64,000 nt of DNA, taken from assembly GCF_054482525.1 (NCBI RefSeq), contig NZ_CM137006.1; one strand, 5' to 3'. Below are positions 6,001-9,000 of this stretch, piece after piece. Numbering within the stretch: the stretch's first letter is position 1; each line of letters starts with the position of its first letter. The position numbers were made by a program.

Positions 6001-9000
6001 TCCGGTGTCGTCTGATTATCAAAGCGAATCTCCCCTGCGTTAACAATATCGCCGGTACTGACCACATCGCCATTCAGTACCATGCTGGCACCTTTACTGA
6101 GCTGTGTTCTGCCACTCAGACTTCCCCCGGCAGCCAGCGTCAGTGTTCCACGATGTCCGACAGTGGTGTTGCTGGCCAGTCCTCCGGCATTAACCGTAAA
6201 GCTGCCGCCATTTTCCAGCAGCAGTCCGCTGGCCTGACCGGATGTGCCATCAATACTGAACTTACCGCTGGCATTGGTCCCCTCAACAGTGGCACCACTG
6301 TCTGCAATCAGGGCACTACCGGATGTCATGGTGACATCTGTTGCCTTACCACCGGCAGACACTGCCAGGGTTCCGCCGTCATCCACCCGTGTTTTCCAGG
6401 CTGAATGGCCCTCCAGTACATCCAGGCGACCACCGGACTCCAGAACAACACCGTCAGCATTACCGTTTTCCACAGTGAAATTGCCCAGACGGTTGCTGCC
6501 GGTGACGGTTGCCGCCGTACTGGTGACCAGTGCGCCTCCCTGCTTCAGCGTGACATTCGTGGCTGTACCACCGGCGTTCACCTGCAGTTTGCCTTTCTGG
6601 TTAACGGTGGTGAAATCCGCCAGACCACCTTCCTTGACAATCTGCCAGCCGTCACTGTTCACAACAGTGTCAGAGGCTGTACCGCCGTTGTGCACATACT
6701 GGTTACCGCCGTTCAGTGTGGTATCCAGCGCGTAGCCATGTACAGTCTGGTCGCCGCCGGCATAAACCACAGTGGTATTTGCTGTTCCTTCAGCAGCCAC
6801 AATCTGACGACCATTTTCATTGATAGTGGTACGTACGGCATTTCCGCGAACAAACTGCCCGGTATCACCATTTTCTGCATCCGGTCCCCCTTCCGCGCCG
6901 GTATTCACAACCGTGTCGGTTGCCACTGCGCCGGATTTGATGGCCTGCCAGCCCTTCTCATTAATGACGGTACCCGTTGCAATCCCGCCTTCATGTACCC
7001 ACTGCTCACCGCCGTTCAGAGTGGTATTCACTGCCTGCCCCTGAAGGCTCTGTCCGCCTCCGGCACTGATAACCGTGTCTGAAACGCTTCCTCCGGCATT
7101 CACTCTCTGAAGACCACCACCGGTGACAGTAGTGTTGTTGGCGATACCGCCATTTTGTATCCATTGTCCGCCGGTATTGGCCTCGTTATCCGGCCCATAC
7201 TCCAGACCGGTACTGATGGTCATTCCGTTGGCCGTACCGAAGACAATCTGGTTGTCATGATTTGTCAGTGTTCCGCCGCTCACGGTTTCTCCCGCCTGTA
7301 CGACCGTGTCAGCAGCCAGTACCGGGACTGACGTGACAGCAGCAAGAGACAGCGCAACCGCCACACCGGTGCGTTTTCCCCGTGAGCGCGCCAGTTCGGA
7401 AGCCACCACCAGGGTGCCCGTAATGTGATTCCATACCAGCCTGTAGCTGGTGTTCAGATGTCGTTTCATCAGCTTTTCCTTACAGAGGGTGAATAAAAAA
7501 GCCGGTACCCACAAATGTGGATACCGGCAGGTACAAAACAGCATGGTCAGATAAAGTGGTTTTTCCCGGACATAAATGCTTCCCCTCTCTCATCCGCCAG
7601 AGAAGTATCAGTCCGTTGTGTGCAATTCCGTTCTGCATGATGAAGAGATTCAGCTGCCTTTTCGCAGACCATTAACCACTATAAACGATCGATAGCAACG
7701 ATCGATACCTGTTTTATCGATCGTTTTATTCTATTAACGACAAGGCGGTCACGCAAGAGAAACAGGAGGAGTATGAGGGGTTTGTGTCATGTTTTCAGTT
7801 GGTTAACGTAATGTTATCAGGCATTTCCCTGGCAGACTGTTCAGAAGAAAATCCAGTTCCATACAGCGCGGGCAACAGAGACCACCGTGTCACGGACGGC
7901 ACGCAGAACCGTACGGGCAACAGAGGCAACACAGACGCTCTCCGCCGTGTCAAATATCCGGTCCACCGCACCGGTAAACTGTTCACGGGCCTGAGCGCGG
8001 ACAGATTCCGTGCGCAGCTCGTCCTGCAGGCGGGTCATCAGGGGACTGGCGGCATGGTCGGGAAGTGCTGTCATTAGCGCACTGACCAGCGTATCCAGTT
8101 CCCAGCCGGTGCGGGCCGATACGGCAACAACCGGATGTACGGGCCGGAACAGACGGAATACCGCCTCCGTTTTCTCCCGAATGTTCTGTGCCTGTGCGGG
8201 AGAAGGCTGAATGCCGGCCATATCCCATTCATGGCAGGGCTCCGTTTTGTCGGCCTGCGTCACCACAAACAGCACCTGCTGATGTCCCCGGTGCAGGATG
8301 TGTCGCCAGAAATACTCATCCACAGACAGGGCGCGGTCATCGGCTTTAATCAGCCACAGCACCAGGTCCAGTTCGGGCAGAATGTCACGGTACAGGGCTT
8401 CATACTCTGCATCCCTGTCCCGGCTCTCGCCCACCCCGGGCAGGTCAGTGATAACCATGCTGTGACCATGGCCACTCAGACGGAAGCGCCGTACTTCCCG
8501 GGTGCCGGCGTGAACATCACTGACCGGGGTGACCTCCCCCTGAAACAGTGCATTACAGAGTGAGGATTTACCGGCCCCGCTTTTACCCATAATGCCAATC
8601 ACGGGTTCGTGACTGGTGAGTTTGCGCAGATGTTCCAGGATGTGACGGGAAAGCGAGTAAGGCAGGGAGGAGAGCGGTTTTTCAATTGCCTCAATGGCAT
8701 CAGACGGATTCATACATGTATTCCCGGTGAAAAAAGACAAAACCCCGCGCACCGGAAAAGTGGCGGGGGACTCACGGAGATAATATCTGCCTAAAATTAT
8801 TTGGAATGCAGGTATATGCAGCTAATTTGTATCGGCTCATTAGTACAGAACTAAACCTCATCTGACAGTCCGCTCTGTGCCAGGAGCAGACATTGCCAAC
8901 GTTATGACCCTCGATTACATCAAAGAGCCCTATAGCCGAAACCTGCACCATAGCCATCTCTGTAGAATTCGTCCTAGGGGCTTTTAACAGACCTAGTTGT

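What the first reader, a model, noticed from the sequence alone, without database searches (positions are those of the whole stretch)
7545..7840. Ag43 phase-variation switch present with all three Dam GATC sites
Three GATC sites (7687, 7700, 7719) sit in the spacing expected for the OxyR-binding region that gives Dam/OxyR-dependent ON/OFF switching of Ag43, so this copy is probably phase-variable.
Basis: partly seen in the sequence, partly recalled or inferred. Interest (0 to 1): 0.45.

Follow-up and report, generated by a model that had tools for sequence, protein, structure and literature searches.

The report
Known Ag43 Dam/OxyR phase-variation switch
This is the well-known methylation-controlled on/off switch in front of the E. 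coli surface adhesin gene Ag43, present here in its commonest natural form and apparently intact, so it is an ordinary, already described feature.

Summary
GATC occurs at 7687, 7700 and 7719, and nowhere else between 5570 and 9637. The gene is on the minus strand. In the direction of transcription the order is: -35 TTGCGT, 17 bp, -10 TAGAAT, three GATCs spaced 19 and 13 bp, a leader of about 250 nt, then an intact 948-aa Ag43/Cah gene starting at 7469, not at the mechanical ORF start 7544.

The spacing and the distance from the -10 match K-12 MG1655, CFT073 agn43b, O157:H7 cah and seven other alleles exactly. Two OxyR half-sites (8/10 each, centres 32 bp apart) span the -10 and all three GATCs. 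Together they are the best match to that pattern in the 64-kb window. The leader matches Rfam IS102 (IsrC) and ends in the known intrinsic terminator.

This form of the regulatory region occurs in about 63% of 5,426 complete E. coli genomes; the K-12 form occurs in about 33%. Published work already notes that both allele groups carry three GATCs with similar spacing. Verdict: interpretation supported, already known, low interest. Switching itself cannot be shown from sequence.

One side observation may be new. The whole agn43 gene and the upstream GTPase gene are strongly depleted of GATC in all seven alleles examined.

The parts
7841..8713 (-). Upstream GTPase-family gene (YeeP-like). Its stop codon at 7841-7843 marks the upstream edge of the regulatory region.
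   Evidence: ORF list. RefSeq annotation of the 99.9%-identical AH65 locus. All 11 alleles start the intergenic region with the same TCTGAA.
7751..7756 (-). -35 hexamer TTGCGT (3/6 to TTGACA), 17 bp upstream of the -10.
   Evidence: Read from sequence. The TTG and the 17-bp spacing are conserved in all alleles; K-12 has TTGTCC. Not called by the generic promoter scan.
7728..7733 (-). -10 hexamer TAGAAT.
   Evidence: Identical in 10 of 11 alleles; AAGAAT in ST131-5392.
7720..7734 (-). OxyR half-site A, ATAGAATAAAACGAT (8/10 to ATAGnTnnnAnCTAT). It overlaps the -10 and GATC-I.
   Evidence: Identical in 10 of 11 alleles.
7719..7722 (.). GATC-I, at or next to the predicted transcription start (about 7724-7720).
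   Evidence: The Rfam IS102 model starts at 7724. The 5' RACE start in ST131 EC958 is 228 bp before the ATG (PMC4807369), which equals the G of GATC-I in an ST131 K-12-class allele.
7700..7703 (.). GATC-II, 19 bp downstream of GATC-I.
7687..7690 (.). GATC-III, 13 bp downstream of GATC-II. GATC-II and GATC-III lie in a 13-bp tandem unit TATCGATCGTTnn.
7688..7702 (-). OxyR half-site C, ATCGTTGCTATCGAT (8/10). It runs from GATC-II to GATC-III, with its centre 32 bp from half-site A.
   Evidence: Scores 7-8/10 in all 11 alleles.
7488..7724 (-). agn43 leader RNA, equal to Rfam RF00124 IS102 (IsrC).
   Evidence: cmscan 73.4 bits against a gathering score of 46, full model 1-206.
7495..7528 (-). Intrinsic terminator in the leader: a 12-bp stem followed by TTTTTT, ending about 26 nt before the ATG.
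   Evidence: Terminator scan; fold. Nearly invariant across both allele classes. Antitermination of IsrC is cited in PMC5389530.
7467..7481 (-). Shine-Dalgarno AAGGA and the true start codon ATG (7469-7467).
4623..7469 (-). Intact Ag43/Cah-family autotransporter adhesin gene, 948 aa.
   Evidence: 74% identical to K-12 Flu end to end, with a shorter passenger domain. Annotated as Ag43/Cah family in AH65.
1986..4502 (-). yeeR-like gene, second gene of the published agn43-yeeR-irmA operon.
   Evidence: PMC4807369.
1456..1910 (-). irmA, third operon gene. It is frameshifted here, split into ORFs of 78 and 73 aa.
   Evidence: Annotated as frameshifted in AH65.

Best explanation
This is the Dam/OxyR epigenetic phase-variation switch of an Ag43-family adhesin operon, in the commonest natural allele class. 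The proposed mechanism follows the K-12 model. A sigma-70 promoter (-35 7756-7751, -10 7733-7728, minus strand) starts transcription at about GATC-I. An OxyR tetramer, in a binding geometry that does not need oxidation, binds two half-sites (7734-7720 and 7702-7688). These cover the -10, the start site and all three GATCs. When the GATCs are unmethylated, OxyR binds, blocks RNA polymerase and shields the GATCs from Dam, giving a heritable OFF state. When Dam methylates the GATCs first, in the window after replication, OxyR cannot bind and the operon is ON. Transcripts then pass, or stop at, the leader terminator (IsrC) before reaching agn43, yeeR and the (here defective) irmA. What is shown here: the sequence anatomy, its register with characterised alleles, its conservation, the Rfam leader match and the intact gene. 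What is inferred: OxyR binding, methylation sensitivity, the transcription start position and actual switching in this strain.
For: Three GATCs at the stated coordinates. The -10-to-GATC-I distance and the 19/13 spacing are identical in 11 alleles of two diverged classes, including the experimentally characterised K-12 region. Half-sites A and C score 8/10 each at 32-bp centre spacing. The combined 16/20 is the single best hit in the window and is expected 0.035 times per 64 kb in Markov simulations. It scores 15-16/20 in all 11 alleles, while the 17-bp spacer between the half-sites differs between classes. A 32-bp spacing is described as canonical for reduced OxyR in opvAB (PMC4856963), which also states that agn43 switching is independent of OxyR oxidation state. 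Rfam IS102/IsrC matches the full leader at 73.4 bits, and the terminator is present. The Ag43 gene is intact. [quoted passage not shown] The regulatory region is covered at >=80% in 3,445 of 5,426 complete E. coli genomes.
Against: No experiment on this exact allele class was found in the papers I could read. The published statement for the second allele group is itself an inference. The contiguous 37-bp OxyR consensus (N7 spacing) scores only 13/20, which is background level in this window. The experimentally bound K-12 site scores only 14/20 at best. The generic sigma-70 scan calls no promoter because the -35 is 3/6; the K-12 -35 hexamer TTGTCC is also 3/6. The sequence between GATC-I and GATC-II differs from K-12 at about 8 of 15 positions, so affinity and switching rates could differ. 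dam and oxyR are not in the window. Their presence is assumed because the window is 99.8-99.98% identical to E. coli AH65.
Confidence: 0.87

Rival explanations
1. The switch elements are present, but this allele class behaves differently from K-12. It might be strongly biased or effectively locked ON or OFF, because the spacer between the OxyR half-sites and the leader (31 nt longer) have diverged.
For: Overall identity to the K-12 regulatory region is only 76%. The spacer is CGATAAAACAGGTATCG against CAATATCTATTTTATCG in K-12. The leader between the switch and the terminator is barely alignable. I found no direct test of this class.
Against: Both half-sites, all three GATCs, the -10 and the spacing are unchanged. 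The class is kept in about 63% of E. coli genomes, and within the class the core is nearly invariant while the flanks vary. That pattern is expected under selection for a working switch.
Confidence: 0.08
2. The conserved GATC-rich palindromes serve mainly at the RNA level, as the 5' hairpin of the IsrC/IS102 leader RNA, and the Dam sites are incidental.
For: The Rfam IS102 consensus structure pairs the GATC-II and GATC-III repeats as a 5' stem. The MFE fold of the leader also pairs this region.
Against: The whole-leader fold is not clearly better than shuffles (z = -1.9). GATC-I and the half-site over the -10 lie at or before the start of the RNA. DNA-level control by Dam and OxyR is experimentally established for K-12. 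The two roles are not mutually exclusive.
Confidence: 0.04
3. The GATC triple is a chance cluster with no regulatory role.
For: Triples within 40 bp occur at two other places in the window, and a triple somewhere in 64 kb is expected in 75% of random placements.
Against: Position, spacing and flanking bases are identical to the characterised switch in 11 alleles. The triple lies directly upstream of an Ag43 gene, inside a GATC-free zone of about 4 kb.
Confidence: 0.01

Closest known systems
agn43 (flu) regulatory region of E. coli K-12 MG1655, the Dam/OxyR phase-variation switch
   Same: -10 TAGAAT. GATC-I begins 11 nt after the first base of the -10. Three GATCs spaced 19 and 13 bp. OxyR half-site A (ATAGAATAAAACGAT) is identical, and half-site C keeps the same eight consensus matches (ATCGTTGCTATCGAT here against ATCGTTTATATCGAT in K-12). 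Same leader terminator and Shine-Dalgarno sequence, and the same upstream GTPase gene.
   Different: Overall identity is about 76%. The -35 is TTGCGT rather than TTGTCC. The 17-bp inter-half-site spacer differs. The leader is 253 nt rather than 222 nt from GATC-I to the ATG and is highly diverged between the switch and the terminator. The gene encodes a 948-aa rather than a 1039-aa protein.
cah (calcium-binding Ag43 homologue) regulatory region of E. coli O157:H7, and the 'Ag43/Cah family' alleles of many commensal and pathogenic strains
   Same: Same regulatory allele class (89-100% identical over 368 bp), same leader length (252-253 nt) and same gene length class.
   Different: Point differences in the promoter spacer and in the three variable bases of half-site C. 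A 1-nt indel in the leader changes the reading frame of the leader ORFs.
agn43-yeeR-irmA operon of uropathogenic E. coli (CFT073, EC958, 83972)
   Same: Same gene order downstream of the switch. The operon is repressed by OxyR. The transcription start maps to the GATC-I position (PMC4807369).
   Different: irmA is frameshifted in this window. The CFT073 agn43b regulatory region belongs to the K-12 class.
Salmonella gtr and opvAB Dam/OxyR phase-variation systems
   Same: OxyR half-sites containing GATC, reduced-OxyR-type half-site spacing, and independence from oxidation state.
   Different: Those systems have alternative pairs of OxyR sites upstream of the promoter, and OxyR acts as activator and repressor. 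Here there is a single repressor site over the -10 and +1, with three GATCs.

Membership tests
Dam/OxyR-dependent agn43 phase-variation switch | Three GATC sites clustered within about 36 bp, spaced 19 and 13 bp in the direction of transcription | tested here: met
   7722-7719, 7703-7700 and 7690-7687 on the minus strand. Identical spacing in K-12 and nine other alleles.
Dam/OxyR-dependent agn43 phase-variation switch | The cluster lies immediately downstream of the -10 of the agn43 promoter and overlaps the transcription start | tested here: met
   TAGAAT at 7733-7728 and GATC-I at 7722, the same 11-nt offset as K-12. The Rfam leader model starts at 7724. The transcription start itself is inferred; it was not measured for this allele.
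Dam/OxyR-dependent agn43 phase-variation switch | OxyR binding-site consensus overlapping the GATCs | tested here: met
   Two half-sites of 8/10 with centres 32 bp apart give 16/20, the best in the window and expected 0.035 times per 64 kb. Conserved in 11 alleles. The contiguous N7 form of the consensus is only 13/20, which is background level.
Dam/OxyR-dependent agn43 phase-variation switch | The switch controls an intact Ag43-family autotransporter gene | tested here: met
   948-aa ORF, 74% identical to K-12 Flu from the first residue to the last.
Dam/OxyR-dependent agn43 phase-variation switch | OxyR binds unmethylated DNA but not Dam-methylated DNA, and the GATCs are unmethylated in OFF cells and methylated in ON cells | not testable with these tools
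   Needs EMSA or footprinting and methylation-aware sequencing. Established for K-12 only.
Dam/OxyR-dependent agn43 phase-variation switch | The host encodes Dam and OxyR | not testable with these tools
   Neither gene is in the window. The window is 99.8-99.98% identical to the E. coli AH65 chromosome.
Rfam RF00124 IS102 (IsrC) leader RNA | Covariance-model score above the gathering threshold over the full model | tested here: met
   73.4 bits against 46, model positions 1-206, window 7724-7488 on the minus strand.
agn43-yeeR-irmA operon | Gene order agn43, yeeR, irmA on one strand downstream of the switch, all intact | tested here: not met
   The order is met (7469-4623, 4502-1986, 1910-1456), but irmA is frameshifted into two ORFs. 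It is therefore an operon with a decayed third gene.
pap-type Dam/Lrp switch | Two GATC boxes 102 bp apart within Lrp sites, plus a PapI-like gene | tested here: not met
   There are only three GATCs, at 19/13 bp spacing, and no second box in the intergenic region. Architecture as described in PMC2909390.

The most novel reading that the evidence does not exclude
The switch is deliberately isolated from other GATCs. The whole agn43 coding sequence and the upstream GTPase gene have been purged of GATC: 0-2 sites observed against 6-11 expected in each of seven diverged alleles. As a result the three switch sites are the only Dam, SeqA or MutH targets within roughly -1.1 to -1.9 kb (six of the seven alleles; a GATC lies at -118 bp in ST131-5392) and +2.1 to +3.5 kb (six of the seven; CFT073 agn43b has extra sites at +134 and +686 bp). 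Such insulation could keep processive Dam or SeqA tracts from biasing the Dam-versus-OxyR race. Alternatively it could lower methyl-directed mismatch repair in a fast-evolving adhesin gene.
Probability: 0.25. Interest if true: 0.45.

Novelty: already known. Interest (0 to 1): 0.13.

Why it matters
It matters little as a discovery. The switch is a textbook example of bacterial epigenetic inheritance, and its presence in both Ag43 allele groups has been published. For annotation, three points are useful. This Ag43/Cah copy should be treated as phase-variable rather than constitutively expressed. The coding start is 7469, not 7544. The leader is the IsrC/IS102 RNA. The K-12 reference region represents the minority class (about 33% of genomes against about 63%), so quantitative switch parameters measured in K-12 may not transfer. 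If the GATC-free zone around the switch is confirmed genome-wide, it would give a testable idea about how such switches are insulated.

Tried and rejected
1. The MAFFT alignments slip the K-12-class sequences by 13 bp, aligning K-12 GATC-II with the window's GATC-III and opening a 13-bp gap. I rejected this in favour of the ungapped register anchored on the -10, in which all three GATCs coincide.

2. The canonical contiguous OxyR motif ATAGnTnnnAnCTAT-N7-ATAGnTnnnAnCTAT gives 13/20 here and at most 14/20 in K-12. Nineteen sites in the window score >=13, so it is not discriminating.

3. The generic sigma-70 scan found no promoter, because the -35 is only 3/6. I treat this as a limit of the scan.

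4. Other high-scoring N17 OxyR-like hits at 56955 and 56987 lie in AT-rich sequence without GATC, and I dismissed them.

5. I tried to read the primary papers (Wallecha 2002, PMC135096; Wallecha 2014, PMC4135670; Kaminska 2010, PMC2838033). None is held. Footprint limits and the K-12 transcription start are therefore not quoted from source.

6. I searched for SMRT methylation data on non-K-12 alleles. These papers make only general statements.

7. The whole-leader RNA fold is only marginally better than shuffles (z = -1.9). I made no new structural claim.

8. Leader ORFs that cross the terminator are present in every allele examined, but their frame and sequence are not conserved and no Shine-Dalgarno precedes them. 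I left this as a note.

Full report
**Observation.**
There is no other GATC between 5570 and 9637. GATC is not enriched in the window as a whole: 232 sites against 246.6 +/- 14 in shuffles. A triple within 32 bp somewhere in 64 kb would arise by chance in about 75% of random placements, and two other triples of span <=40 bp exist at 32351 and 36912. In one given 370-bp intergenic region the chance is about 0.008. The count alone is therefore weak evidence; the architecture is what matters.

**Anatomy.**
The relevant gene is on the minus strand. The mechanical ORF 4623-7544 begins at an in-frame upstream ATG. The real start is ATG 7469-7467 (MKRHLNTSYRLVWNH...), preceded by AAGGA. This start matches the RefSeq call in the 99.9%-identical E. 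coli AH65 locus. The product is 948 aa and aligns with K-12 Flu/Ag43 from the first residue to the last at 74% identity, with a shorter passenger domain. The upstream neighbour is a GTPase-family (YeeP-like) gene ending at 7841. Reading the 371-bp intergenic region in the direction of transcription gives:
- -35 TTGCGT (7756-7751), then 17 bp, then -10 TAGAAT (7733-7728)
- GATC-I (7722-7719), GATC-II (7703-7700) and GATC-III (7690-7687)
- a long leader
- a 12-bp GC-rich hairpin followed by TTTTTT (7528-7495)
- the Shine-Dalgarno sequence and the ATG

**Comparison with characterised and other alleles.**
Megablast of the region finds it at >=80% coverage in 3,445 of 5,426 complete E. coli genomes, but it aligns only the last 61 bp to K-12. 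The K-12 type of region is found at >=80% coverage in 1,782 genomes. There are thus two classes of regulatory region, and the window carries the commoner one.

I fetched K-12 MG1655, CFT073 agn43b, O157:H7 cah, GPEC1240, 2015C-4944, VR50, JEB8 and OkiPb01710, and two ST131 alleles. In all eleven sequences, including the window, the GATCs are spaced 19 and 13 bp. GATC-I begins 11 nt after the first base of the -10 hexamer, which reads TAGAAT in ten of them and AAGAAT in ST131-5392. The classes differ in three ways:
- the -35 (TTGCGT against TTGTCC)
- the bases between GATC-I and GATC-II
- leader length (252-253 nt against 222-228 nt from GATC-I to the ATG) and leader sequence

MAFFT slips the two classes by one 13-bp repeat unit. 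The ungapped register anchored on the -10 is the sensible alignment. The most conserved blocks of the whole intergenic region are the -10 plus GATC core and the terminator plus Shine-Dalgarno block.

**OxyR site.**
The contiguous 37-bp consensus (half-sites 22 bp apart) scores only 13/20 here and at most 14/20 in K-12. That is no better than many other places in the window.

With the half-sites one further helical turn apart (centres 32 bp apart) the picture is clear. Half-site A, ATAGAATAAAACGAT (7734-7720), covers the -10 and GATC-I and scores 8/10. Half-site C, ATCGTTGCTATCGAT (7702-7688), runs from GATC-II to GATC-III and also scores 8/10. The combined 16/20 is the single best hit in the 64-kb window. 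It is expected 0.035 times per 64 kb in first-order Markov simulations.

The same two half-sites score 15-16/20 in all eleven alleles, while the 17 bp between them differ between classes. A 32-bp centre spacing is what the opvAB study calls canonical for reduced OxyR. That paper also states that agn43 switching does not depend on the oxidation state of OxyR (PMC4856963). This half-site assignment is my inference. I could not read the K-12 footprinting papers.

**Leader.**
Rfam RF00124 (IS102, the RNA also called IsrC) matches 7724-7488 on the minus strand over its full length, at 73.4 bits against a gathering score of 46. The three GATCs therefore lie at the very 5' end of the leader, and the terminator is the 3' end of IsrC. 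PMC5389530 cites Wallecha et al. 2014 for control of flu by antitermination of IsrC.

In ST131 strain EC958 the operon's 5' end was mapped 228 bp before the start codon (PMC4807369). In an ST131 K-12-class allele the G of GATC-I lies exactly 228 bp before the ATG. I take this as support for a start at about 7722 in the window. It rests on assuming that EC958 carries that allele.

**Mechanism.**
The mechanism is the one established for K-12. OxyR bound to the unmethylated site represses transcription and shields the GATCs from Dam. Methylation of the GATCs prevents OxyR binding. Replication reopens the competition (PMC2909390; PMC4872104; PMC13337833).

Downstream, the window has the published agn43-yeeR-irmA operon order. 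That operon is repressed by OxyR in CFT073, EC958 and 83972. Here irmA is frameshifted.

The presence of three similarly spaced GATCs in both Ag43 allele groups, and the inference that both phase-vary, was already published for EAEC 042, citing the 2008 review by van der Woude and Henderson (PMC2808357).

**What remains unshown.**
OxyR binding, methylation sensitivity, the start site and switching have not been measured for this allele class in anything I could read. The diverged spacer and leader leave room for different switching rates.

**Side observation: a GATC-free zone.**
The switch sits in a GATC desert. The three largest GATC-free gaps of the window are contiguous around it. Observed against expected GATC counts from synonymous-codon shuffles are:
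- agn43: 1 against 7.2
- the upstream GTPase gene: 0 against 3.1
- the next gene downstream, yeeR: 20 against 15.8, so not depleted

agn43 and the GTPase gene are the two most depleted of 27 large ORFs in the window. Six other alleles have 0, 0, 0, 0, 0 and 2 GATCs in agn43 against 6-11 expected. GATC is the most depleted palindromic tetramer in the three alleles tested. However, GGCC and TCGA are also low, so the null model is imperfect for this repeat-rich gene. I found no mention of this in the held library.

**Verdict.**
The feature is already known, so interest is low.

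Noticed in passing
window 5570-11495; also L001, L009, L013-L016: There is a GATC-free zone around the switch. 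The agn43 CDS has 0-2 GATCs against 6-11 expected from synonymous-codon shuffles in seven diverged alleles. The upstream GTPase gene has none in six of the seven alleles (one GATC in ST131-5392). The downstream yeeR is not depleted. The three largest GATC-free gaps of the window are contiguous here. GGCC and TCGA are also low, so the null model is imperfect.
   Followed up: partly
window 7638-7481 (minus strand) and 7544-7470 (minus strand): Two ORFs in the leader read through the terminator hairpin. One is a 52-codon ORF from ATGCAGAAC that ends at the TAA overlapping the agn43 Shine-Dalgarno. The other starts at ATG 7544 in frame with agn43. An ORF crossing the terminator exists in all 10 alleles examined (the eleventh, ST131-5392, was not evaluated because the script stopped), but frame and peptide are not conserved and no Shine-Dalgarno precedes it. 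It could bear on the unexplained antitermination of IsrC.
   Followed up: partly
window 1456-1910 (minus strand): [quoted passage not shown]
   Followed up: partly
window 7470-7840 compared with L001, L006, L009, L012: There are two classes of agn43 regulatory region. The window class has a 253-nt leader and occurs in about 63% of complete E. coli genomes. The K-12 class has a 222-228-nt leader and occurs in about 33%. The regulatory class is not tied to protein length: OkiPb01710 combines the window-class regulatory region with a 1040-aa Ag43, which implies recombination between modules.
   Followed up: partly
window 59800-59870 (minus strand): One full and one truncated type I-F CRISPR repeat (GTTCACTGCCGTACAGGCAGCTTAGAAA; Rfam CRISPR-DR4, 50 bits) lie between clpA (60084-62375) and the island integrase (58184-59386). 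This is a degenerate CRISPR remnant next to what looks like a partial tRNA-Ser attachment site. ARAGORN finds no intact tRNA in the window.
   Followed up: no
window 47682-48993: An insertion of about 1.3 kb relative to strain AH65 carries an ALIL pseudoknot (Rfam RF01497, 120 bits at 48018-48134). This is an IS3-family element.
   Followed up: no
window 27861-28205 and 28624-28691 (minus strand): The sRNA families STnc490 (143 bits) and STnc100 (136 bits) lie side by side inside the island. Next to them is a weak tRNA-like hit (30.7 bits) that ARAGORN does not call.
   Followed up: no
L009 35387-35521 (CFT073 agn43b leader): The CFT073 agn43b leader has a fourth GATC exactly 102 bp downstream of GATC-III. 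This is the same distance as between the two GATC boxes of pap and is probably coincidence.
   Followed up: no
window 12000-21000 (by colinearity with AH65, L002/L010): Just upstream of the Ag43 module the island carries a type I restriction-modification system (hsdR, hsdM, hsdS) with a DarT/DarG toxin-antitoxin pair inserted between hsdS and hsdR, according to the AH65 annotation.
   Followed up: no
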